DNA from: an uncultured Christensenella sp.
GTDB lineage: Bacteria; Bacillota; Clostridia; Christensenellales; CAG-917
Direction of reading: 5' to 3'
Assembly (NCBI GenBank): GCA_910578325.1
Contig: CAJTQT010000003.1
Coordinates: 167,882-231,881 of the forward strand
DNA: 64,000 nucleotides
A model generated the notes under the pieces. That model saw only the letters and a list, made by a program, of their open reading frames with translations, made no database searches and was not told where the DNA came from. The position numbers were made by a program, and so were the translations under genes. Within the stretch, counting starts at the first letter, position 1. Each line of letters starts with the position of its first letter. This document shows positions 1 to 8,917 of the stretch, piece after piece.

Positions 1-3000
1 ATACTTTCATAATCATAATATGAACCATTACTGCTATTGGCTTTCATATATCTTTTAGTAGTTACTATACGCTTGTTGACTTTATCATTACTTATTTGTT
101 TGCGCATATATGGCTTTTCTGCCACTGCAACCTCCGTTACATCGCCATAATTATCATATGCGTATTCTATTTCTGTACCGTTATGACTAAGTTTAGTGAG
201 TAAACCTAAGGTGTATTCCATTACGTTTGCATTTTGCTGCCCGTCAACACTTGCAGATACACTCAGTAAAGTGTCGTCGTTATGGTCATAGCCATATGCA
301 ACCTGCTCCCCGTTCTTATCAGTAGACACACTTACAATATCTGTATTTGGAATATTCGTATAGTCACATACCTTTTCGCCAAACTCATTTACAGCTCCGA
401 TTTCAGTACCCTTGTCATCTAATATGCTTTCCTCATAATATTTGCTTGAAGGCTCGTCTTGATTATATGTTATATTCTTTAATACAATGCCTTTATCATT
501 ATATTCAGTCTCATTAACTATACCATTATAATCTACGGTGCGAATAAGCGCTCCTATTGCATTATAGTCATATGTAGTTATATATTCTTTGCTGGAATCA
601 TCTCTTCTCAATATAACTTTGACAAGTTTCTTATCGTCATCATATTCATATTCGGTGAAATACTTAGATTTACTATTTTCTTCGTAAGTTTTTGCGCCAT
701 CAGAATTGTATTCGCTATAATTCCACTCTCCTTCCTTTAATTGCATATTTTTTATCTGTGCAAAATTCGTATTTAATGAATAATCCATATATACAAATAA
801 ACTCTCCAATATATACGATTTATTTTCACTCAAAACAATAGGCACTGAACAGTACTGCCAGTCTTGTTGTTGCCAATCAAAACTTGCATAAACATTATCA
901 GTAACAGATACATTATTTTTAGTATCTCTATATGTGATTACTGCGCCGATTTCAAATCTCCTTCCTCTTTGTGTACTATCGGCAAATTGTAAAAATTCTT
1001 TTTCTAACTCATCATAAGTTTCATCACTGCCGATCCTATCTCCAAAACAAGTGCATCTTCTTCTTGCATATGCCGAATCAGCCATTGCCCATGCTGATAA
1101 AACAAAATCCTTTTTGCCACTGTTAATAATTTTCGTCACATCAACATTTTTTCCGATCCTTTCATCTGTTGGATTAATTATTACAGTATTAGAACTCTCC
1201 GCTTCAAACGAAGAAAGTGTTTCCCCGTCAATACCGTCCACATCTCCCATATTGAAGTTATTCCCTAAATAGTTTTCCGCAACGATTTCATGTTCGCATA
1301 CAGAGTCACCATTTCTATTAATGAAGCAAGTATTTTGCAAATAATCTTCTCCGTATATTTTTGGAGTTGATGAATAAGCAATTTTTCCATTTGAATAATC
1401 AAATGATTTTGCTAAACATCCATCTAATCCATTTTTCTTCTCATAAATGGTGATCGGTCTGCAATCATTATCAAATAAGTAAACTATCTCCTTCCCGTTC
1501 TCTTCCGTAATAGTTGTACGGCGACAATCATTGTAAGCTATATTTATTTCTGATTTTTTAACTAGTCCTGTAAAATTTTTCTTGCTATTATGTCTTATTT
1601 TCCTTTGTTTTGCAATTTCGGCAACACTGTTTATCCTATTATTAGAATATGAAAGTTGAATACCTAAACCATTGGGAGCAACCATTTCTTTTAATAGTTC
1701 ATCATCATATGTATAAGTAGATTCTGTTTCATCATTATAAATAACTTTCGTTAATCTTTCATTTGTGTCATAAACATATTGTGTTTCTCGTCCCCTACCA
1801 TCAGTAATAGAAATAAGCATACCATTGTTAGAGTCATACTTTAAACCTAATTCATTTTTATCTCCGACTATTCTTTCTATTTGATTCTCATCATTAAATT
1901 CAAAATATATTGCATTTTCCCATTTATCAGCGATCATTACCAATCGATAGACCTCTCCTATTGGATAATCTGTATTTTCATTATTCAAAAACATATCTGT
2001 TTTGTTAGGTAAATCGATTCTATTTTGTATCGCAAAATAGTTATCATTGACTTCTGTGTCTAAACGAGAAAAACCAAATGTTGTACCCTCCTCATTACTT
2101 ATATAATGTACAGGCACTCGTCGTTGTAGTTTTTTTAATTCATTTTTTGATTTTACTACTTCATCTTCATATTCATGTATTAATTTTTCACATGACTTGC
2201 AATCTCTATAAACTTGGTTAATATCCAAATCGAGTTGACTTATTTGAATTTCGCTTAATGACATATTGGTATGCAAATCATTTGTTTCAAAAAACAGTTT
2301 ATAGCCCAAATCTTCAAATAAATAATTCGCATCCGCTACACTTAAATCTAACGATTCTCTAATCAACTGTTCTAATTTGGATTGTGAACATTTATTGGTT
2401 AATTCATCAGACTTAACAGACAATTGATTTTGATAATCTTTTAAACTGTCTGTCACAGGTTCATCTGGATTTGCATTTTCAGATACACCCCATGTTGCCT
2501 TATCCTGTTCATTTTGAATATACATACTCACGGCAGAACTTTTAATACTAGTTGAAGAAAGTAGTGTACCTTCACTCTCGCTATTAATATCTAAATAAAT
2601 TGTATTAGGATCTTCTTCCGGATTATTTCCACACTGAAAATCGTCTGCTGTTGAAATTTTTACATTGATATCTGGGTTTTTGATAATGTCACCAACTCTA
2701 TTATAAACCGTATCAAAAGCATCTTTATTAATTGCGTCTTTAATAGTCGAATCATTATTATTTGAGTTTGTATCATCAGTATTTTTAATCAAATTTATAA
2801 ATTCACCATATTTTTCTAATTTCTTTATGGCTTGTTGAGCATCGTATAATTCTTTTTCTAAATTAGCTCTTTTCTTTGAATCTTTTGAACTTAATTTTTG
2901 TATTTGATTTTGAATATCTAACGATTTTTTACTCAATGCAAACAAGCAGATCTTTTGCTTATTAATTGCAATATTATATTTTAAATCATCTATATTGCCG

Positions 3001-3935
3001 TTCAATTGCTTAATATTCTCTTTCACCTGAACAATTTCGTCAATTTCTGTTTGAATATACTTAATTCCTTTAAAGCCTTCTAATTGGGTAACTAATGTCA
3101 TACCAGAAGATGTGACAAGTTCTTTTTCCACTTTATATTTTCTATTACCTACAAAATATAGATTTTCATTTTCGTCTATATTGACTTCGCTATAATTTAA
3201 ATAATGTTTAACCTTATTATTATCTAAATAATAATATTTTTCTTTGAATATATGTTTATTACCTTTGCCATCTAAAAATGTGAAAATTTTAGAAATCTTG
3301 TCAGCGTCTATTGCTGGAATACTTTCTCTTATGAGATATTGTTGCATGTTCAATTTCCAATTTTTCCCAAATCCAGCAGTCAATCTATTTTCTGAAATAG
3401 TATGAGTTCTATCCATAAATGGATCATAAATATGCGAAAGACCTACTGATAAAGAACCTGACCTTATAGAGGCATCCAAATGCGTAAATTTTAAATCTCC
3501 TGTTGCTAAATTAATACGCCCTTGCCCTGCTCTACCTGCATCAATCTCTTTATAGGCATTGTTTTCCAATAAAAGATTTTTTGGAATATAATCTATAATT
3601 ACTGCGCTTCTTAGCTTATTAAAAGTAATTATATTAATATCGTCCTTGCTAAAAGTAAGGTTTAGAATTTCATCATTATTTATCGCATCTGTTAATTCTT
3701 CAGTAATATTAATGCATATATACCGTTGGGCAATAGTAGGAGTGATATAATCTATAATTTTGTCCTTACAGCTCACTGTACCATTATATGAATTATTCAT
3801 ATTTTGAACATATAATTTAATTACAGCGTTTTTTATTTTGTTATCATTTGTCAATGAAGATTTATATGACACTTTGAAAAAATCAGAAGTGGCACTAAAT
3901 CTAAGATTATTACTCCCATCAATTTTTTTAAACAT
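1..3935 (-). CDS. RHS/YD-repeat polymorphic-toxin-type protein, N-terminal >=1311 aa (3' end runs off the window)
   Basis: My own translation of the minus strand from ATG 3935-3933 (ccaaAGGAGcaaattATG) stays open to position 3. It is missing from the ORF track only because no stop lies in the window. Rhs shell-start motif INLATGDLKFTHLDASIRSGSLSVGLSHIYD...GFGKNWKLN. Many YD units: YVYDTNERLTKVIYND, YTYDDELLKEMV, YEYDDDKKLVKVI, TYDYNAIGALIRTVDYNG, AYGYDHNDDTLLSV, EYAYDNYGDVTEV. Confidence 0.85.
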   Translation of the reverse strand, partial: MFKKIDGSNNLRFSATSDFFKVSYKSSLTNDNKIKNAVIKLYVQNMNNSYNGTVSCKDKIIDYITPTIAQRYICINITEELTDAINNDEILNLTFSKDDINIITFNKLRSAVIIDYIPKNLLLENNAYKEIDAGRAGQGRINLATGDLKFTHLDASIRSGSLSVGLSHIYDPFMDRTHTISENRLTAGFGKNWKLNMQQYLIRESIPAIDADKISKIFTFLDGKGNKHIFKEKYYYLDNNKVKHYLNYSEVNIDENENLYFVGNRKYKVEKELVTSSGMTLVTQLEGFKGIKYIQTEIDEIVQVKENIKQLNGNIDDLKYNIAINKQKICLFALSKKSLDIQNQIQKLSSKDSKKRANLEKELYDAQQAIKKLEKYGEFINLIKNTDDTNSNNNDSTIKDAINKDAFDTVYNRVGDIIKNPDINVKISTADDFQCGNNPEEDPNTIYLDINSESEGTLLSSTSIKSSAVSMYIQNEQDKATWGVSENANPDEPVTDSLKDYQNQLSVKSDELTNKCSQSKLEQLIRESLDLSVADANYLFEDLGYKLFFETNDLHTNMSLSEIQISQLDLDINQVYRDCKSCEKLIHEYEDEVVKSKNELKKLQRRVPVHYISNEEGTTFGFSRLDTEVNDNYFAIQNRIDLPNKTDMFLNNENTDYPIGEVYRLVMIADKWENAIYFEFNDENQIERIVGDKNELGLKYDSNNGMLISITDGRGRETQYVYDTNERLTKVIYNDETESTYTYDDELLKEMVAPNGLGIQLSYSNNRINSVAEIAKQRKIRHNSKKNFTGLVKKSEINIAYNDCRRTTITEENGKEIVYLFDNDCRPITIYEKKNGLDGCLAKSFDYSNGKIAYSSTPKIYGEDYLQNTCFINRNGDSVCEHEIVAENYLGNNFNMGDVDGIDGETLSSFEAESSNTVIINPTDERIGKNVDVTKIINSGKKDFVLSAWAMADSAYARRRCTCFGDRIGSDETYDELEKEFLQFADSTQRGRRFEIGAVITYRDTKNNVSVTDNVYASFDWQQQDWQYCSVPIVLSENKSYILESLFVYMDYSLNTNFAQIKNMQLKEGEWNYSEYNSDGAKTYEENSKSKYFTEYEYDDDKKLVKVILRRDDSSKEYITTYDYNAIGALIRTVDYNGIVNETEYNDKGIVLKNITYNQDEPSSKYYEESILDDKGTEIGAVNEFGEKVCDYTNIPNTDIVSVSTDKNGEQVAYGYDHNDDTLLSVSASVDGQQNANVMEYTLGLLTKLSHNGTEIEYAYDNYGDVTEVAVAEKPYMRKQISNDKVNKRIVTTKRYMKANSSNGSYYDYES

Positions 3936-4024
3936 AATTTGCTCCTTTGGTAAAAGTTTATATTTTATATTCTAAACGGATATTTTTCTAATGCCTTCTA
4001 ATTTTTGCTAATTTACACTAATCT

Positions 4025-4456
4025 TTACGCTTGTTCGTCTGCCAAATATAAATCAATGAACTTTTCGAGAGCTATTGTATGCAACTGATAAATTCTTTTT
4101 GAAGAATAATGCATCTTATCTGCAATTTGGTCATAGGTATAAAACCTTATATATTTGAGATAAATTATGTTTCTATAAGGCTGTTCTAATTTTTTGATAA
4201 TCGTTTCAATTTTTTGTTTTTTATTTAGGATTTCTATTAGCGATTCTTCTTCGCGCATTTCTCTTTCAACAACATTATTTAATTGCACTCCTACCGCATC
4301 TGCTTCATTCGGTGTATGTTCACTAAGTGATTTTATTCTTAATATTGAATTTTCAATATCGGTTTTATATTTTTCTCTTTCTTTTGACTTTTCTAAAAAA
4401 TAATCAACATCGAGAGCGCAGTTCTCTAATTCTTTTTTAACATCATCTTTGGTCAT
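4025..4456 (-). CDS. Sigma-70 region-4-only HTH protein (phage/ICE late-regulator-like), 143 aa
   Basis: Track ORF is 4025..4492; I prefer ATG 4456 (GAGGAA ~6 nt upstream). The C-terminus LEQPYRNIIYLKYIRFYTYDQIADKMHYSSKRIYQLHTIALEKF looks like a sigma region 4.2 HTH. The N-terminal half is charged and coiled-coil-like, with no region 2. Confidence 0.55.
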   Translation of the reverse strand: MTKDDVKKELENCALDVDYFLEKSKEREKYKTDIENSILRIKSLSEHTPNEADAVGVQLNNVVEREMREEESLIEILNKKQKIETIIKKLEQPYRNIIYLKYIRFYTYDQIADKMHYSSKRIYQLHTIALEKFIDLYLADEQA

Positions 4457-4522
4457 AGTTTTTCCTCTTCGAAATTTTGCTTTTATATACATAACGAAAT
4501 TAAAAATGCTTTTGTTCCAAAA

Positions 4523-5254: not shown

Positions 5255-6145
5255 TTAATATACATTGACTGCTTCTGCATCATCCATAACCCCATTATTA
5301 TCTAAAAGATAATAAAAAACCACACCTGTACTAACAACCATACGAATACCCGATGCAACCTCTATATACACTTTTGAGTTTATTATAGCTCCATCATTAT
5401 TATAATAGTCTACTATTTGATACCCATATGCTATAGCAATGTGTGTATCATTATCATAGATACTCTTATTTAAGATGTCAACATTCTCATGATAGTTAAC
5501 TGATGTTAGATTAAATCCACTTAAATATAATACCACGGGATGTCCCATTTGTATTTGAGTAATAAACTTATCTATATCAAATTTTTTATTGCTAAAGACA
5601 TTGTTATATGTAATACTTTTTCCTTTCTCATTTATATATTGCGTTAGCCCTTGCTTAAACATCGCTTGTGTAGTTCCATTATAATCTAATCCCGTCCGCA
5701 TATATGAATAAAGCGTATTAATTACTGCTTGCTTTTTACTTTGGTTCATTCGCATTGGATAATACACATATTGATTCTTTACAATTCTTCCCGAAGTATA
5801 ATCAGGAATAAAATCGTCATAAAAACGATCGTAATAATTTATAATATTAGCACCGGCAACATTAGCACATGCATTTTCTAAATTATTATCTGTATTATAA
5901 CAGTCTGGAAATGTAACATTAACTCTGTCATATTTTCTTATATTTTTGGTAGCATATTCTATTCTTTCCGTTTCCGACTTGCCTATGGTTGTTTCAGAAT
6001 ACGCTATACTTCCATAGTATTTTTCACTTGGCTCATATGCGAAAGCACAATTAGTAACTTCTTTAATAGAAACTAATGTCAATATACAAACAATAAAATA
6101 TGTAACTGCTATTATTCTTATAAAACTAAATTTTTTCTTTGTCAT
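5255..6145 (-). CDS. Secreted papain-fold / C39-like cysteine-peptidase-like protein
   Basis: SD AGGAGA. N-terminal signal/anchor KKKFSFIRIIAVTYFIVCILTLVSI...CAFA. Candidate catalytic Cys in NACANVAGANIINYY and candidate His in DTHIAIAYGY (papain-like H-x-aromatic context). Assigned from motif memory only. Confidence 0.4.
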   Translation of the reverse strand: MTKKKFSFIRIIAVTYFIVCILTLVSIKEVTNCAFAYEPSEKYYGSIAYSETTIGKSETERIEYATKNIRKYDRVNVTFPDCYNTDNNLENACANVAGANIINYYDRFYDDFIPDYTSGRIVKNQYVYYPMRMNQSKKQAVINTLYSYMRTGLDYNGTTQAMFKQGLTQYINEKGKSITYNNVFSNKKFDIDKFITQIQMGHPVVLYLSGFNLTSVNYHENVDILNKSIYDNDTHIAIAYGYQIVDYYNNDGAIINSKVYIEVASGIRMVVSTGVVFYYLLDNNGVMDDAEAVNVY

Positions 6146-6157
6146 TTTCTTCTCCTA

Positions 6158-6700
6158 TTATTCAAGATGTTCTTTAAGTATCATTATAGCATTCTGTTTT
6201 TGCCTACATACTTCAGTTGATGACATTTTCAGTTCTTTAGCTATTTCTCTAATAGTACATTTTTCAAAATATACCGCCTGTATTATTATAGCTTGCAATT
6301 TAGTTAATCTTTTAAATGCTTGTTCCATCATTAAGTGTAATTCAATCCTCTCTATACTTAAATTTTGATAATTCGTTAAACTCCCGTAATCAACATAATC
6401 GATATATACTTCTTGATGCTTATGTAATTTCCTATATCTGTCAATAGCCTTATTTCTAATGACTTTACATAAATATCCATAAGCATTTTTATTAAAGCGA
6501 TATAATTTTAAAATTTTATAAATCTCTGCCCAAAAATCTTGCACTAAGTCTTCCGCATCTAATTTATCATGTAAATATTTATAAGCAATATGTCTAATAG
6601 GAACAGAAATTAAGCTATGTAGTTCATTTATTAAATTATATTCACCTAAATTTATTTGCTTAACGAGTTTTTCAATTTTATCTCTTTCTTCTCCTTCCAT
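6158..6700 (-). CDS. Sigma-70 family RNA polymerase sigma factor, ECF-like (regions 2 and 4 only), 180 aa
   Basis: Region-2-like DAEDLVQDFWAEIYKILKLYRFNKNAYGYLCKVIRNKAIDRYRK. Region-4 HTH LQAIIIQAVYFEKCTIREIAKELKMSSTEVCRQKQNAIMILKEHL. Confidence 0.75.
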   Translation of the reverse strand: MEGEERDKIEKLVKQINLGEYNLINELHSLISVPIRHIAYKYLHDKLDAEDLVQDFWAEIYKILKLYRFNKNAYGYLCKVIRNKAIDRYRKLHKHQEVYIDYVDYGSLTNYQNLSIERIELHLMMEQAFKRLTKLQAIIIQAVYFEKCTIREIAKELKMSSTEVCRQKQNAIMILKEHLE

Positions 6701-6721: not shown

Positions 6722-7063
6722 TTATTCTATATTTTTATCTATTAATAATCTTTCTATAAATAAATTAATCATTTCTAAATCATCCTCTGATAATTCTAAA
6801 AGTTTATTTGCAATCTCAGTTTGTTTTACTGACATTTCTTCAGATTTATTTTCTGAAAAGAAAACAGCTAATGAAACACCCAAATAATCACAAATTTTTT
6901 CAATAGAACGTAGAGATGGTCTACATGCCGCATCTCGTTTTGGATTCTTTTTCCACTGATAAATCGTTGATGATATATTTGTATTTTCTCTTAACTTATA
7001 ATACGTGATACCTTTTTCCGACATCAACTGCTCAATTCTGGCAATAACAATTTTTTTATCCAT
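6722..7063 (-). CDS. XRE-family helix-turn-helix transcriptional regulator
   Basis: Track ORF is 6722..7090; I prefer ATG 7063 (GAGGT upstream). HTH MSEKGITYYKLRENTNISSTIYQWKK...SLRSIEKICDYLGVSLAVFF. Confidence 0.8.
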   Translation of the reverse strand: MDKKIVIARIEQLMSEKGITYYKLRENTNISSTIYQWKKNPKRDAACRPSLRSIEKICDYLGVSLAVFFSENKSEEMSVKQTEIANKLLELSEDDLEMINLFIERLLIDKNIE

Positions 7064-7187
7064 ATCAACCTCGATGTAATATACAACCATTTTAAAGTAG
7101 TTATTTCACCTTTATAAAGTGACTACTACATCATAAATAAGTTGATTTTTCAACTCAAATTATAAAATCCTAATAACAGAATAACTA

Positions 7188-8102
7188 TTATAACTCTTTT
7201 AATCCTTTCCAAACTGGCTGACGCATTCCCCCACTCTCTGTTTCGTGCATAAAGTGTGCAGTCCCTATAAGCTCAGGCTTTATCCACACTGCGTTTTTGT
7301 ATTTGTCAAACCAAGGATTTCTAACCGTATTCTTTTTAGCAAACTCATAAATAATTCTGCGTTCTTCTTCGGATATTCCTAGATATACTTTACCTCTACA
7401 TTGCAATACGCCGTTCTCGTCATAGTATCCAAGTATTAAATCTTTAACTTTCCCATTATTATCAGGTTGATATCCGCATATCAATAAATCCTCATCTTGC
7501 ATTACCTTTATCTTGATCCATTCTATTGAGCGCTTCCCTATATGGTATAATCCGTCTTTTCTCTTTGCTACGATACCCTCTAACTCTTGTGCCTTTGCGA
7601 GTTCAAAAAATGCAATGCCATTCTTTTCTATATATCTTGAAATACCTAAGTTATGCCCTTCCGCAACTGCATTTGCAAGTGCAGATTTGCGTTCCATTTG
7701 AGTTTTGTCTGTTAAATCTTTTCCGTCTAAATATAAAATATCATAAGCTACAAACTGAACGGGATTGGCTTTTGCCGCCAAACTTATCTTAAACTTATCC
7801 CCCATAAGACTGCGTTTTTGTAAGGCATAGAAATCGGGCTTACCGTCTGTTAGTACGACAAGCTCACCGTCGAGTATAACTCGCTTTTTAACGCATTTGC
7901 ACATATCGGATAATTCGGGGTAAATATCCGTAACGTCTTTATATCTCTTATTTTGCAATGTAATCGAATTGCAGTCCAAATAAGCAATGCACCGTATGCC
8001 GTCTAATTTCAATTCATAGATATAATCATCGTCATCAAACGGCTCGTGTTCTTCATACAAAAGCATTGGCGATATATTCTTTTCTTCAAATAAATCTACC
8101 AT
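7188..8102 (-). CDS. ligD: ATP-dependent DNA ligase, LigD ligase-domain-only (304 aa)
   Basis: Adenylation motif I ELKLDGIR, then LDGELVV, FVAYDILY, EGIVAKRKDGLY, WIKIK. No polymerase or phosphoesterase domain. The start overlaps the Ku stop (TAATG). Confidence 0.9.
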   Translation of the reverse strand: MVDLFEEKNISPMLLYEEHEPFDDDDYIYELKLDGIRCIAYLDCNSITLQNKRYKDVTDIYPELSDMCKCVKKRVILDGELVVLTDGKPDFYALQKRSLMGDKFKISLAAKANPVQFVAYDILYLDGKDLTDKTQMERKSALANAVAEGHNLGISRYIEKNGIAFFELAKAQELEGIVAKRKDGLYHIGKRSIEWIKIKVMQDEDLLICGYQPDNNGKVKDLILGYYDENGVLQCRGKVYLGISEEERRIIYEFAKKNTVRNPWFDKYKNAVWIKPELIGTAHFMHETESGGMRQPVWKGLKEL

Positions 8103-8917
8103 TACGCTTCTTTCTTCTTTGCAGTCTTTCTTACAGGTGCTTTATTAACGATTTTAGATTTCTGCGCAAGTTCAAGGCTCTTTGTCAATGCTTCCATAAG
8201 ATTGGTTATAGAACTACCGCCCTTTTCTTTCGGAGCAACAATTTCCTTACCCGCTATTTTCCTTTCTATAGCTTCTTGAACTTTCTCCCTATACTCATCT
8301 TTATATTCTTCGGGAGTAAACTCTCCGCTCATTCCCTCTATAATCGCCTTTGCTATTTTGAGCTCGGATGCGTTAGGCTTTTCTGTAATGTCCTTTGCTG
8401 GATTTTTAGTAACTTCCTCTGCAAAGAATAATGTATTCAACAATAACTGTCCATCTTTCGCGCGTATCAATATAAGTGTTTCTTTATTGCCCATAACGGT
8501 TTTAGCAATAGCCGCCTTACCTTCTTCTTCCATTGCCGTTAAAAGCACTGCAACCGCTTTCTCTGCGCCCGTAGGCACAATGTAATACGGTTTATCAAAA
8601 TACAACGGGTCAACCTCTGAGAGGCTCACAAACTTTTCTATCGTTATATTCTTATCTTTCTTTGATTTAATCTTTTCAAAATCTTTATCATCAAATATAA
8701 CATACTTGCCTTCCTCGTACTCAAAGCCCTTAACAATATCTTCTTGCTTAACTTCACGCCCGTCACAATCTGCACAGGTCTTTTTATACTTGACACGACT
8801 CATAGTCTTTTTATCTATCATGTTAAAGCCAATGTCATTGTTCTTAATTGTATTATGCAAAGTTATTGGAATGTAAACAAATCCGAAACTTATACTACCT
8901 TTATACGAATAACTCAT
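8102..8917 (-). CDS. ku: Non-homologous end joining protein Ku
   Basis: N-terminus KGSISFGFVYIPITLHN, CADCDGREV, EDIVKGFEYEEGKYVIF, and a lysine-rich C-terminal tail KAPVRKTAKKKEA typical of bacterial Ku. Confidence 0.92.
   Translation of the reverse strand: MSYSYKGSISFGFVYIPITLHNTIKNNDIGFNMIDKKTMSRVKYKKTCADCDGREVKQEDIVKGFEYEEGKYVIFDDKDFEKIKSKKDKNITIEKFVSLSEVDPLYFDKPYYIVPTGAEKAVAVLLTAMEEEGKAAIAKTVMGNKETLILIRAKDGQLLLNTLFFAEEVTKNPAKDITEKPNASELKIAKAIIEGMSGEFTPEEYKDEYREKVQEAIERKIAGKEIVAPKEKGGSSITNLMEALTKSLELAQKSKIVNKAPVRKTAKKKEA

What the first reader, a model, noticed from the sequence alone, without database searches (positions are those of the whole stretch)
1..3935. Giant RHS/YD-repeat ORF hidden from the ORF track, with no export signal and a ~300-aa coiled-coil insert
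Seen: the minus strand is open from ATG 3935 to the window edge (>=1311 codons). The supplied track lists nothing here except a spurious 73-aa plus-strand ORF. The first ~140 aa (MFKKIDGSNNLRFSATSDFFKVSYK...) show no signal peptide, lipobox, LXG or PAAR-like feature. The shell-start motif (LATGDLKFTHLD...GFGKNWKLN) lies at ~aa 140-190. From ~nt 3,060 down to ~2,130 (aa ~290-600) the sequence becomes a K/E/N/D/Q-rich heptad-like region, for example IDEIVQVKENIKQLNGNIDDLKYNIAINKQ, KKRANLEKELYDAQQAIKKLEKYGEF and EKLIHEYEDEVVKSKNELKKLQRR. Dense YD repeats then resume.
Established: Rhs proteins normally build a continuous beta-cocoon around a C-terminal toxin and carry a recognisable delivery domain.
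Inference: the delivery route is atypical (holin-like release, T7SS-independent, or surface display through the coiled coil). The toxin tip and immunity gene lie left of position 1.
Basis: partly seen in the sequence, partly recalled or inferred. Interest (0 to 1): 0.65.

Follow-up and report, generated by a model that had tools for sequence, protein, structure and literature searches.

The report
Signal-less Rhs toxin with phage-derived partners
This is an intact 1994-residue Rhs "cocoon" toxin of a gut Gram-positive bacterium that has no secretion signal, carries a helical hairpin insert typical of its family, and is wired by a shared promoter element to phage-like fibre proteins and a small membrane protein, which suggests a holin-type release route.

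Summary
The ORF is real. It is open at the window edge and runs to 1994 aa in the genome. It looked "hidden" only because ORFs that run off an end are not listed by default.

It is an Rhs/YD polymorphic toxin. From N to C it has:
- a β-sandwich domain (aa 1-125);
- the plug/shell start;
- a ~318-aa insert, of which only the two arms (aa 291-384 and 533-607) are long heptad-like helices;
- a second, β-rich insert (aa ~881-1080);
- the Rhs C-terminal plug;
- a 195-aa hydrophobic, Gly-zipper tip, followed by a 2-TM immunity gene.

The insert and the missing signal peptide are shared by a whole clade in gut Clostridia/Bacilli MAGs. More distant relatives do carry Sec signal peptides.

The genome has no WXG100 protein and no multi-domain EssC-type ATPase. 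The protein has no PAAR or LXG domain.

The Rhs gene travels with a conserved five-gene cassette: fibre-like, tandem-Ig adhesin-like, Gly-rich, a ~160-aa protein, and a 3-TM protein. A 35-bp core of a promoter/operator element occurs exactly twice in the genome, upstream of the Rhs gene and upstream of the cassette. A phage late-activator-like regulator is encoded just before the Rhs gene. In relatives, unrelated small membrane proteins sit directly upstream of the Rhs gene.

Best reading: a phage-derived, holin-type release (and perhaps targeting) system for a membrane-attacking Rhs toxin. The route is inferred, not shown. I rate it a new variant of a known kind.

The parts
3..3935 (-). Rhs/YD-repeat toxin gene, N-terminal 1311 of 1994 codons. 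The full gene is C3:165832-171816(-), which runs 2050 bp past the left edge of the window.
   Evidence: Pfam RHS_repeat 5.8e-19; 100% identical separate assembly
3561..3935 (-). N-terminal β-sandwich domain, aa 1-125. No signal peptide. Optional in the family.
   Evidence: AF2 pLDDT 70-82. Foldseek best hits are BMP prodomain arm and CBM35 jelly rolls, E ~6e-4, which is weak. No Pfam match. Absent from the L062 Rhs and from P0017.
3066..3545 (-). N-terminal plug / shell start, aa 131-290 (AGRAGQGRINLATGDLKF … GFGKNWKLN … EKYYY)
   Evidence: Invariant columns in 11 homologues. Weak DUF6531 match. Foldseek matches to Rhs shells 7pq5, 7q97 and 8qja. DUF6531 is the N-terminal plug in Tse5 (PMC10684867).
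2784..3065 (-). Insert, outgoing helical arm, aa 291-384
   Evidence: AF2 helices 291-347 and 354-384, pLDDT up to 84; heptad windows above the 99.9% null level
2340..2783 (-). Insert, distal part, aa 385-532: poorly defined, variable, not heptad-like
   Evidence: AF2 pLDDT <50; heptad score not raised; length-variable among homologues
2115..2339 (-). Insert, returning helical arm, aa 533-607, ending at the conserved P-V-x-Y/F-I anchor
   Evidence: AF2 helix 533-606, pLDDT up to 86; heptad windows 564-607; anchor P608 invariant
1296..2114 (-). YD-repeat shell, aa 608-880
   Evidence: RHS_repeat and TIGR01643 matches at aa 700-736; β-hairpins in the AF2 model
696..1295 (-). Second, non-YD insert, aa ~881-1080 (…FVLSAWAMADSAY … FDWQQQDWQY…), conserved in many family members, fold unknown
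   Evidence: Motif found in 20 of 45 tabulated family members, including the close homologues; no Pfam match; not modelled
3..695 (-). YD-repeat shell, aa 1081-1311, continuing beyond the window edge
3942..3948 (-). Shine-Dalgarno AAAGGAG, 6 nt before the ATG
3967..4022 (-). Promoter/operator element with four ATTAG repeats at an exact 10-bp period. Its 35-bp core recurs upstream of the fibre cassette (C3:165185), and with 2 mismatches at C3:121006.
   Evidence: It is the only ATTAG-N5-ATTAG site in the 1.6-Mb genome: 3 overlapping pairs against 0.33 expected. The two copies agree at 46 of 47 positions. A similar phased element lies upstream of the Rhs gene in L018 and upstream of the fibre gene in L063.
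4025..4492 (-). 155-aa sigma region-4 / DUF1492-type regulator, like a phage late activator, directly upstream of the Rhs gene
   Evidence: Pfam Sigma70_r4 and DUF1492; phrog_36 'transcriptional regulator' 1e-14; 45-47% identical homologues at the same position in L007 and L018; weak homologue in L062
4578..5246 (-). 222-aa single-pass membrane protein with anti-sigma-like topology
   Evidence: One TM at aa 52-70; a protein with the same topology and position in L004; no sequence similarity detected between the two
5255..6145 (-). 296-aa exported protein, possibly a C39-like Cys peptidase
   Evidence: N-terminal hydrophobic segment; homologues in L004, L014, L023, L054 and L062; weak Peptidase_C39_2 match for the L004 homologue, E = 0.0085
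6158..6700 (-). 180-aa ECF-like sigma factor
   Evidence: Sigma70_r2 1.6e-13, Sigma70_r4, Sigma70_ECF
6722..7090 (-). 122-aa HTH_26 (XRE-type) regulator
   Evidence: Pfam HTH_26 1.8e-9; 51% identical homologue in the equivalent cassette of L004

Best explanation
The window edge cuts through a single intact 1994-aa Rhs/YD polymorphic toxin gene. It lies on a low-GC, horizontally acquired island of a small-genome (1.6 Mb), wall-bearing gut Bacillota MAG.

Shown or strongly supported:
- The protein builds an Rhs cocoon (plug/shell start, YD shell, C-terminal plug).
- The cocoon would enclose a 195-aa hydrophobic, glycine-zipper-rich tip (aa ~1800-1994).
- The next gene, a 170-aa 2-TM protein, is the immunity partner.

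Inferred:
- The tip is a membrane-depolarising or pore-forming antibacterial toxin.
- The cocoon is decorated by an optional N-terminal β-sandwich, by a family-wide helical hairpin whose two long arms would project a variable distal part away from the shell, and by a second β-rich insert. These are most likely binding or docking surfaces.
- The protein has no Sec, T6SS or T7SS address. I propose that it is made under a phage late-activator-like regulator together with a co-regulated, phage-derived cassette (fibre-like protein, tandem-Ig adhesin-like protein, Gly-rich protein, a ~160-aa protein and a 3-TM protein).
- I propose that it leaves the cell through a holin-type membrane lesion or lysis of a subpopulation. 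This would be analogous to TcdE-dependent release of large clostridial toxins and to T10SS release of Tc toxins.
- The signal-less fibre and adhesin proteins may be released with it and may help it bind target cells.
For: Identity:
- RHS_repeat 5.8e-19.
- aa 1484-1798 aligns to the C-terminal plug of Tse5, S. bongori Rhs, YenC2 and RhsA.
- The family alignment shows a conserved body.

Tip and immunity:
- TM segments occur only at aa 1802-1903.
- 35 of 37 family tips begin with a hydrophobic segment.
- In L059 an orphan tip 54% identical to aa 1743-1994 is followed by a 31% identical homologue of the 170-aa protein.
- A 15-bp-stem terminator follows the 170-aa gene.

No classical route:
- No hydrophobic N-terminus.
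- No WXG100 in the genome. The only strong FtsK/SpoIIIE hit is single-domain.
- About 19 more distant relatives carry clear Sec/TM N-termini, so the signal-less state is a clade trait and not a calling artefact.

Partners:
- The five-gene cassette is 33-73% identical and linked to signal-less Rhs genes in my locus, L061 and L062. It is also present in L063.
- In L062 the 3-TM gene lies directly upstream of the Rhs gene.
- Unrelated small TM proteins sit directly upstream of Rhs in L005, L022 and L045 (LLH-like; PHROG holin 7e-6) and in L011 (a different 3-TM family).
- The LLH-like gene is in 11 of 33 signal-less loci and 0 of 19 SP/TM loci, Fisher p = 0.004.

Co-regulation:
- A 35-bp core occurs exactly twice in the genome, before the Rhs gene and before the cassette.
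- The regulator gene ends just before the element.

Cassette folds:
- The 592-aa protein models at pLDDT 87.7 as tandem Ig-like domains. It matches pilus adhesins and phage tail-collar/baseplate proteins.
- The 344-aa protein matches PHROG 'tail fiber assembly' at 3.6e-10.

Precedents (abstracts listed): TcdE (PMC3369941) and T10SS release of Tc toxin (PMC10847048).
Against: - No experiment or expression data bear on this.
- The 190-aa 3-TM protein has no detectable similarity to any Pfam, PHROG or PADLOC family, or to the two holin-like families of relatives. It is a holin candidate by topology and position only.
- No endolysin was recognised in the locus, although the organism has penicillin-binding proteins and so a wall.
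- My genome lacks the LLH-like family.
- The Fisher test ignores shared ancestry among the loci.
- The first Asp of the DPxGx18DPxG protease motif is Glu (EAEE…DDNG), so self-cleavage of the tip is not assured.
- The AF2 model of aa 1-720 is weak overall (mean pLDDT 57.5). I could not examine the relative position of the two arms, because no coordinates were available.
- The tip has no family match, so pore formation is inferred from composition alone.
Confidence: 0.55

Rival explanations
1. The toxin is released passively, with no dedicated machinery. The Rhs protein escapes by ordinary autolysis or prophage induction. The fibre/3-TM cassette is neighbouring prophage debris with no role in toxin release or targeting.
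For: The island is a mosaic that includes Ku/LigD, a LexA-like repressor and conjugative-element genes. The 3-TM protein matches no known holin family. In L059 a homologue of the 3-TM protein sits among housekeeping genes beside an orphan tip only.
Against: The cassette stays with signal-less Rhs genes in at least three independent loci despite rearrangement. It lies downstream in my locus and L061, and directly upstream in L062. The Rhs and cassette promoters share a 35-bp core found nowhere else in the genome as an exact copy, and similar elements occur in L018 and L063. Three unrelated small-TM families occupy the position next to Rhs.
Confidence: 0.15
2. The toxin is associated with a particle. 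The Rhs cocoon is a component or cargo of a phage-like particle. The N-terminal domain and helical hairpin dock it to fibre or baseplate-like proteins or to a capsid-type module, and the particle delivers it.
For: In L016 the Rhs gene follows TerL, portal, major head and virion structural genes on one strand. L022 has the same module, then a holin-like gene, then Rhs. My genome carries a homologous capsid-type module on C4:181.6-190.7 kb, with TerL 64% and MCP 54% identity. The cassette proteins are fibre- or adhesin-like.
Against: Only 2 of about 33 signal-less loci show the capsid module next to Rhs. In my genome the module is on another contig, at host-like GC, with no tail or lysis genes recognised beside it. 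No sheath, tube or baseplate genes were seen in the Rhs locus. The presence of an immunity gene and orphan tips fits a free polymorphic toxin.
Confidence: 0.15
3. The protein acts inside the cell. It is never exported, and the tip acts in the producer, for example as an abortive-infection or toxin-antitoxin-like module, as reported for Salmonella Rhs elements.
For: There is no export signal. Rhs elements acting as type II TA-like modules have been reported (PMC7043789, abstract listed). The regulators are phage-type.
Against: No PADLOC defence model matches any gene of the locus. Related family members carry Sec signals and are clearly extracellular. The protein carries β-sandwich decorations, and its co-regulated partners are adhesin- or fibre-like, which suggests an extracellular binding role. 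Orphan tips with immunity genes are typical of competition systems.
Confidence: 0.05
4. The protein is exported by an unrecognised dedicated secretion system (a divergent T7SS-like or other translocon) that reads the N-terminal β-sandwich or the helical hairpin as its signal.
For: The N-terminal domain and hairpin are conserved and match no known family. Helical hairpins are T7SS-type signals in other proteins (my own knowledge, not tested).
Against: There is no WXG100 and no multi-domain EssC-type ATPase in a 98%-complete genome. The N-terminal domain is dispensable in family members such as the L062 Rhs and P0017. No conserved ATPase or channel gene appears among the neighbour clusters.
Confidence: 0.05

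Closest known systems
Tse5 (PA2684) of Pseudomonas aeruginosa, a T6SS Rhs effector with a pore-forming C-terminal toxin (PMC10684867, PMC9637101)
   Same: Both are Rhs barrels with N- and C-terminal plugs. The C-terminal plug aligns by sequence (8cp6, E = 1.3e-9). Both have a hydrophobic tip that would act on membranes, enclosed in the shell. Both have an immunity gene downstream.
   Different: Tse5 is delivered by the T6SS through a VgrG/PAAR-type N-terminus. My protein has none, and the host is Gram-positive. Tse5 has no helical hairpin insert, no N-terminal β-sandwich and no second β-rich insert. Its DPxGx19DPxG motif is complete, whereas mine reads EAEE-x18-DDNG.
WapA-type Rhs/YD toxins of Gram-positive bacteria (Bacillus subtilis, Streptococcus suis; PMC12704120)
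   Same: Both are Gram-positive YD-repeat polymorphic toxins with a variable C-terminal tip and a downstream immunity gene. The core end has the same RYYD…GRF…NLY.YC..NP signature.
   Different: WapA-type proteins are exported by Sec through a signal peptide. Mine has none. SP-bearing relatives of my family do exist but form a different group.
Tc toxin TcB-TcC cocoon released by the T10SS (holin/endolysin/spanin) in Yersinia entomophaga (PMC10847048); YenC2 structure
   Same: Both are Rhs-type cocoons around a toxic tip, with no signal peptide and with release linked to phage-lysis-derived genes. The C-terminal plug aligns to YenC2 (E = 1.8e-5). In both, separate large partner proteins are candidates for binding target cells.
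   Different: Tc toxins are Gram-negative insecticidal ABC complexes with a TcA injector and a TcB β-propeller. I found no TcA-like gene here. My partners are fibre-like or tandem-Ig proteins, the tip looks antibacterial, and an immunity gene is present. No endolysin or spanin was recognised.
Holin-dependent release of large clostridial toxins (TcdE with the TcdR sigma factor; PMC3369941, PMC8878733)
   Same: Both involve a very large toxin without a signal peptide, encoded with a small sigma-type activator and a small phage-derived membrane protein in a Gram-positive host.
   Different: The toxin family is unrelated. My 3-TM protein is not homologous to TcdE-type or other catalogued holins. 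The regulator is of DUF1492/phrog_36 type and was not shown to be TcdR-like.
Glycine-zipper membrane-depolarising toxins of T7SS LXG proteins (EsxX, TspA; PMC12744356)
   Same: Both are hydrophobic, Gly-zipper-rich C-terminal toxins neutralised by membrane immunity proteins in Bacillota.
   Different: Those toxins ride on LXG domains through a T7SS. My genome has no WXG100 or EssC, and here the carrier is an Rhs cocoon.

Membership tests
Rhs/YD-repeat polymorphic toxin | YD/RHS repeats forming the shell | tested here: met
   PF05593 5.8e-19; TIGR01643 5.9e-5; Foldseek matches to Rhs shells 7pq5, 7q97 and 8qja
Rhs/YD-repeat polymorphic toxin | N-terminal plug (DUF6531) | tested here: inconclusive
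   PF20148 E = 0.062, 14.1 bits against a cut-off of 24.1, at aa 141-212. The motif is invariant in the family, and one homologue (P0017) carries a precomputed DUF6531 match.
Rhs/YD-repeat polymorphic toxin | C-terminal plug with aspartyl-protease motif DPxGx18DPxG | tested here: inconclusive
   The plug aligns to Tse5, YenC2 and RhsA. The second motif is DDNG, with the Asp kept. The first is EAEE, with Asp replaced by Glu and Pro lost. Across the family the first position is D in 19, E in 7 and other in 10 of 36.
Rhs/YD-repeat polymorphic toxin | Variable C-terminal tip with a cognate immunity gene downstream; orphan tips | tested here: met
   Tips diverge after the core end even in the 59%-identical P0004. 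The tip and the 170-aa protein co-occur in L059. An orphan fragment, tip and 195-aa gene lie at C3:121.2-123.1 kb. L003 has an orphan array.
T6SS Rhs effectors | PAAR/VgrG-interacting N-terminus and a T6SS in the genome | tested here: not met
   No PAAR or VgrG match in the protein. The host is a Gram-positive-type organism. I did not search the genome for T6SS core genes.
T7SS (LXG/WXG) toxins | LXG or WXG100 domain, and EssC and EsxA in the genome | tested here: not met
   No LXG match. There are 0 WXG100 matches in the genome. The only strong FtsK_SpoIIIE match is a single-domain hit in a 1243-aa ORF that I read as FtsK-type.
Sec-dependent WapA-type Rhs | N-terminal signal peptide | tested here: not met
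   Maximum KD19 in the first 70 aa is 0.76. Only 12 in-frame codons lie upstream of an ATG preceded by a Shine-Dalgarno sequence.
Holin-dependent toxin release (T10SS / TcdE-type) | A holin-family membrane protein encoded with the toxin | tested here: inconclusive
   The 190-aa protein has 3 TM segments and a charged tail. It is conserved with Rhs genes but matches no holin family. Relatives carry an LLH-like protein (PHROG holin 7e-6; Pfam Holin_LLH below cut-off) next to Rhs.
Holin-dependent toxin release (T10SS / TcdE-type) | Endolysin (and a spanin in Gram-negatives) encoded with the holin | tested here: not met
   No muramidase or amidase domain in any gene of the locus. The genome has PBPs, so a wall must be crossed.
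Holin-dependent toxin release (T10SS / TcdE-type) | Release of the toxin depends on the holin | not testable with these tools
   This needs genetics and secretion assays.
Tc (ABC) toxin complexes | TcA injector and TcB β-propeller partner | tested here: not met
   No such domains among the neighbours. The 592-aa partner is a chain of Ig-like domains.

The most novel reading that the evidence does not exclude
Signal-less Rhs toxins of gut Clostridia/Bacilli belong to an undescribed phage-derived release-and-aiming system for Gram-positive bacteria. One late-activator-type regulator, acting on a shared phased-ATTAG operator, switches on the Rhs cocoon with its immunity gene, together with a cassette of signal-less fibre, tandem-Ig adhesin and Gly-rich proteins and a new 3-TM holin-like protein. 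The holin-like protein lets all of them out. The helical hairpin and/or the N-terminal β-sandwich of the cocoon docks onto the fibre/adhesin proteins, which bind the target cell. In function this would be a Gram-positive counterpart of a Tc toxin with T10SS release.
Probability: 0.25. Interest if true: 0.85.

Novelty: new variant of a known kind. Interest (0 to 1): 0.62.

Why it matters
How very large toxins without signal peptides leave Gram-positive cells is an open question. It has been studied mainly for the large clostridial toxins. Rhs toxins are usually filed under T6SS, T7SS or Sec.

This locus, with at least three related loci, gives a compact and testable gene set:
- a regulator;
- a unique shared operator;
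- the Rhs gene with its immunity gene;
- a five-gene fibre/adhesin/3-TM cassette.

This set could define another route, and possibly a targeting device, for interbacterial toxins in abundant but poorly studied gut Clostridia/Bacilli.

It also shows that Rhs cocoons can carry large surface decorations (a helical hairpin and two β-rich modules). That bears on how cocoons recognise targets.

If the cassette turns out to be unrelated debris, the finding reduces to one more polymorphic Rhs toxin with an unusual N-terminus.

Tried and rejected
1. LLH-like holin in my own genome. An HMM built from 9 relatives found nothing among 19,110 stop-to-stop ORFs.
2. A fusion of that holin-like domain to the TM-bearing N-termini of L014, L019 and P0015, which I thought I saw by eye. 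Neither the HMM nor Pfam supports it.
3. The N-terminal domain as a DNRLRE/CBM-type family, which was my recollection. There is no Pfam or NCBIfam match at E ≤ 1. Only a weak structural resemblance to jelly rolls remains.
4. A PT-TG or other known toxin family for the tip. No match at E ≤ 5.
5. Homology among the three small-TM families (my 190-aa protein, the L007/L011 ~200-aa proteins, and the LLH-like proteins). hhalign probabilities are below 2%.
6. Anti-phage defence. No PADLOC match for 10 proteins of the locus.
7. T7SS. Absent.
8. Sequence relatives of the 426-, 592- and 344-aa proteins among solved structures. None.
10. Organism name. The RpoB look-up by identity found nothing. I infer only "Bacillota gut MAG" from the titles of related loci.
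11. The heptad score as proof of a coiled coil. The local windows stand out, but the protein-wide maximum does not beat composition-matched shuffles. I therefore call the arms heptad-like helices, not a proven coiled coil.
12. The Rhs gene in close relatives. It is absent from 18 same-genus and 12 same-order genomes.

Full report
**Observation.** The minus strand is open from the ATG at 3935 to the window edge: 1311 codons. The ORF is missing from a default ORF list only because frames that run off an end are not listed. The window is C3:167882-231881 of a 1.63-Mb, 15-contig, 98%-complete genome. In the genome the ORF continues to 1994 aa, at C3:165832-171816.

The start is sound. AAAGGAG lies 6 nt before the ATG, and the stop-to-stop frame leaves only 12 codons upstream. 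A separate metagenome assembly (L065) is 100% identical over 7068 bp without gaps, from codon ~96 through the stop and the next gene. I cannot tell whether that assembly comes from an independent sample.

**Setting.** The genome is ~46% GC and the Rhs region is 26-33% GC. The N-terminal 720 aa have no match at E ≤ 1e-10 in 18 genomes of the same genus or 12 of the same order. This is the only full-length Rhs gene in the genome. The locus is therefore an acquired island. The organism has two penicillin-binding proteins, so it has a wall. Many of its giant proteins begin with lipoprotein-type signals, so the lack of a signal on this one is not a habit of the genome.

**Anatomy of the protein.**
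- **aa 1-125:** a β-sandwich (AF2 pLDDT 70-82). Its best structural matches are jelly rolls such as BMP prodomain arm domains and CBM35 (E ~6e-4, weak). No Pfam family covers it.
- **aa 131-290:** the conserved start of the cocoon (AGRAGQGRINLATGDLKF … GKNWKLN … EKYYY). Many columns are invariant across 11 homologues, and there is a sub-threshold DUF6531 match. [quoted passage not shown]
- **aa 291-607:** the insert. AlphaFold predicts very long helices at 291-347, 354-384 and 533-606 (pLDDT up to 84-86). The middle, aa 385-532, has low confidence. A register-aware heptad score exceeds the 99.9% level of composition-matched shuffles in eight windows. Seven of them lie in 291-381 and 564-607. 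The protein-wide maximum is not beyond the 95% level of shuffle maxima. I read this as an outgoing and a returning helix that would form a hairpin stalk with a variable tip. I could not inspect coordinates, so the antiparallel packing is inferred.
- **aa 608 onward:** YD repeats.
- **aa ~881-1080:** a second, non-YD, β-rich insert (…FSAWA.ADSAY … FDW…W Q…). It is conserved in many family members and has no Pfam match.
- **aa 1484-1798:** aligns to the C-terminal plug of solved Rhs and TcC proteins: Tse5 1.3e-9, 8h8a 1.8e-9, S. bongori Rhs, YenC2 and RhsA.
- **Protease motif:** DPxGx18DPxG reads EAEE-x18-DDNG. The second Asp (D1795) is kept. It is nearly invariant in the family (32 of 36). The first position is Glu here; across the family it is D in 19, E in 7 and other in 10. 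Self-cleavage after ~N1799 is plausible but not assured.

**Tip and immunity.** aa ~1800-1994 is 15% Gly and 26% Gly+Ala, carries repeated GxxxG-type runs, and holds the only TM-grade hydrophobic segments of the protein, at 1802-1903. It matches no family. In 35 of 37 family members whose core end I could locate, the tip begins with a Trp-rich motif followed by a strongly hydrophobic segment.

The next gene encodes a 170-aa protein with two TM segments and is followed by a 15-bp-stem terminator. In L059 an orphan tip 54% identical to aa 1743-1994 is followed by a 31% identical homologue of that 170-aa protein. That is what a toxin-immunity pair looks like. By analogy with Tse5-CT (PMC9637101) and with the glycine-zipper toxin EsxX (PMC12744356), I infer a membrane-depolarising or pore-forming antibacterial tip. 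This is an inference from composition and context.

**The family.** A search with aa 1-700 found homologues of 1.9-2.3 kaa: 59% identity to a Bacilli MAG protein and 27-34% to the others. A scan of species genomes gave 54 loci, mostly gut MAGs labelled Christensenellales, Clostridia, Bacilli or Oscillospiraceae.

All close homologues share the plug/shell start and a helical insert at the same place. Many also have the second insert, and almost all have the hydrophobic start of the tip. The insert varies from ~120 to ~420 aa. In P0005 its heptad repeats are visible by eye. The N-terminal β-sandwich is optional: the L062 Rhs and P0017 begin at the shell start. The insert is therefore a trait of the family and not an oddity of this gene. 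I found no such insert in the solved Rhs structures that matched.

**Export address.** The first 70 aa have no hydrophobic segment. Pfam finds no PAAR, LXG or other trafficking domain. The genome has no WXG100 protein, and its only strong FtsK/SpoIIIE match is a single-domain hit in a 1243-aa ORF that I read as FtsK.

Among relatives that share the GKGWKL shell start, about 19 begin with clear Sec or TM N-termini. About 33, including the close clade, do not. The signal-less state is thus a recurrent trait of a clade.

**Partners.** Three lines of context point to phage-derived partners.

*First: small membrane proteins next to the Rhs gene.*
- A 114-142-aa single-TM family (PHROG holin 7e-6 and 6e-4; Pfam Holin_LLH below its cut-off) lies directly upstream of Rhs in L005, L022 and L045, divergently upstream in L004 and L021, and just after the immunity gene in L010.
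- An HMM finds it in 11 of 33 signal-less loci and 0 of 19 SP/TM loci. Fisher p = 0.004, not corrected for shared ancestry.
- L011 has an unrelated ~200-aa 3-TM protein directly upstream of Rhs, with a homologue beside the L007 Rhs.
- My genome has neither family.

*Second: the cassette in my locus.*
- After the terminator come five genes:
  - 426 aa, with weak PHROG tail-fibre matches and a repeated …SYNSLTDKPTIP… unit;
  - 592 aa;
  - 344 aa (Pfam Gly_rich_2 5e-13; PHROG 'tail fiber assembly' 3.6e-10);
  - 163 aa;
  - 190 aa, with three TM segments and a charged tail.
- The 190-aa protein defines an unnamed family of 33 clusters.
- The whole cassette is conserved at 33-73% identity in L061, L062 and L063.
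  - In L061 the order matches mine: Rhs, immunity, then the cassette.
  - In L062 the order is HTH_26, sigma, two genes (one homologous to my peptidase-like protein), a small regulator, the cassette ending in the 3-TM gene, then Rhs and immunity directly after it.
- The 592-aa protein models with high confidence (pLDDT 87.7) as a chain of Ig-like β-sandwiches. It matches Gram-positive pilus adhesins (PitA, SpaC, TIE; E ~1e-5) and phage tail-collar/baseplate proteins (E down to 1e-9).
- None of the four soluble cassette proteins has a signal peptide.
- The three small-TM families show no detectable homology to one another. Unrelated small membrane proteins filling the same position is what one expects of holins. 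That argument is contextual.

*Third: regulation.*
- A 155-aa protein with sigma region 4 (Pfam DUF1492; phrog_36 'transcriptional regulator' 1e-14) is encoded directly before the Rhs gene. Homologues 45-47% identical sit at the same place in L007 and L018.
- Between its stop codon and the Rhs start lie four ATTAG repeats at an exact 10-bp period. This is the only such site in the genome: 3 overlapping pairs against 0.33 expected.
- A 35-bp core of this element occurs exactly twice in the genome, upstream of the Rhs gene and upstream of the fibre cassette. The two copies agree at 46 of 47 positions.
- A third copy with 2 mismatches precedes a truncated fibre gene at C3:121.0 kb, next to an orphan Rhs fragment, an alternative tip and a 195-aa gene.
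- Similar phased elements lie upstream of Rhs in L018 and upstream of the fibre gene in L063.
- I take this as good evidence that the Rhs/immunity unit and the cassette form one regulon. That the 155-aa protein is its regulator is inferred from position.
- Further upstream is an HTH_26 / ECF-like sigma / exported peptidase-like / anti-sigma-like cassette. It recurs beside family members in L004 (HTH 51% identical, peptidase-like 28%) and in L062 (HTH 28%, peptidase-like 27%).

**Phage link.** In L016 the Rhs gene follows large terminase (3e-31), portal (1.5e-37), major head protein (3e-60) and a virion structural protein on one strand. L022 has the same module, then the holin-like gene, then Rhs. 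My genome has a homologous capsid-type module on another contig, C4:181.6-190.7 kb, with TerL 64%, MCP 54% and portal 43% identity. It is at host-like GC, and I recognised no tail, lysis or Rhs genes beside it. This keeps a particle-associated reading alive. Only 2 of about 33 signal-less loci show that adjacency.

**Mechanism.** The identity of the protein as a polymorphic Rhs toxin with a membrane-active tip and a membrane immunity protein is well supported. For delivery I favour co-induction of Rhs, immunity and cassette by the late-activator-type regulator, followed by release through a lesion made by the 3-TM protein, with or without lysis of a subpopulation. This follows the logic of TcdE-dependent toxin release (PMC3369941) and T10SS release of Tc toxin (PMC10847048), both known to me from the abstracts listed. 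The fibre and adhesin proteins, and the hairpin and β-sandwich decorations of the cocoon, would then serve in binding to target cells.

Points against this reading:
- there is no homology of the 3-TM protein to known holins;
- no endolysin is recognised in a walled organism;
- the Glu in the protease motif leaves tip cleavage unproven;
- there are no expression or functional data.

No defence-system model matches the locus, which weighs against an intracellular abortive-infection role.

**Relation to earlier notes of this scan.** My results agree. A follow-up on another genome proposed a signal-less RHS pore toxin with a holin-like 3-TM partner, fibre-like proteins and a late activator. I saw it after finding the LLH-like association and the phage context. 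It led me to test the 190-aa protein, and the cassette linkage and shared promoter are my own results. It is not independent evidence.

**Novelty.** Rhs polymorphic toxins, pore-forming Rhs tips and holin-dependent release of large toxins are each known. I did not find the following described in the papers I could search, and the searchable library is incomplete:
- this signal-less Gram-positive clade with a family-wide helical hairpin insert;
- the conserved fibre/adhesin/3-TM cassette;
- the shared operator.

I rate it a new variant of a known kind.

Noticed in passing
C3:120761-123098 of the own genome (outside the window, ~45 kb left of it): A decayed second copy of the arrangement. It consists of an orphan Rhs fragment (184 aa, 61% identical to aa 1537-1709), a core end plus an alternative tip (217 aa, …NNPVMLVDDNGNKPKWWQW…), a 195-aa candidate immunity gene, a third copy of the ATTAG promoter element (2 mismatches in 35), and a fibre gene truncated to 52 aa. 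It abuts luxS-like, dnaG and rpoD-like genes.
   Followed up: partly
C4:181573-190719 of the own genome: A capsid-type module: TerL, portal, scaffold, major head protein, and homologues of the 181-, 480- and 278-aa genes of the L016 phage. It is at host-like GC (~0.5), with no tail, lysis, integrase or Rhs genes recognised beside it. The same module directly precedes the Rhs gene in L016 and L022. It could be a domesticated or remnant head module.
   Followed up: partly
window 696-1295 (-), aa ~881-1080 of the Rhs protein: A second non-YD insert in the shell, with conserved motifs (F/L-S-x-W-A-x-A-D-S … F-D-W-x-x-x-x-W-Q). It is β-rich, has no Pfam family, and is present in many family members.
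   Followed up: partly
window 7188-8917 (-): Ku (Pfam Ku 4e-48) and a ligase-only LigD (304 aa, ATP-dependent ligase domains) are carried on the same low-GC island, with overlapping stop and start codons.
   Followed up: no
L061:11285-20335 and L063:8234-10549: In two relatives the fibre/3-TM cassette lies next to PcfJ/PcfK-type conjugative-element genes. In L061 it also lies next to a CBASS-like set (SAVED, SMODS, Cap2/ThiF, JAB). The cassette may travel on conjugative elements.
   Followed up: no
L063:3123-7858: A tandem duplication of the last three cassette genes (Gly_rich_2 ~335 aa, 157 aa, 191-aa 3-TM). The two copies give identical BLAST matches to my proteins.
   Followed up: no
C3:146411-157441 (-) of the own genome (L002:1-5442): A 3676-aa ORF preceded by a small sigma region-4 protein (166 aa), a Zn-ribbon protein and a LexA-like S24 repressor. 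It is probably part of a conjugative or mobile element adjoining the Rhs island. It was not annotated further.
   Followed up: no
L003:17858-22154: A classic array of orphan Rhs tips and candidate immunity genes downstream of the main Rhs gene. It includes a 404-aa orphan C-terminal fragment and ends near a holin-like gene. An integrase fragment lies upstream.
   Followed up: no
L004:6073-8172 (-): A 699-aa MACPF-domain protein is encoded ~1.7 kb upstream of a signal-less Rhs gene, next to the holin-like gene.
   Followed up: no
window 5255-6145 (-) and homologues in L004, L014, L023, L054, L062: An exported 265-390-aa protein with conserved Cys…His motifs (C..AGANI…Y and DTH…GY) and a weak Peptidase_C39_2 match recurs between an ECF-like sigma gene and an anti-sigma-like gene beside these Rhs genes. 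It may be part of a protease-gated sigma switch.
   Followed up: partly
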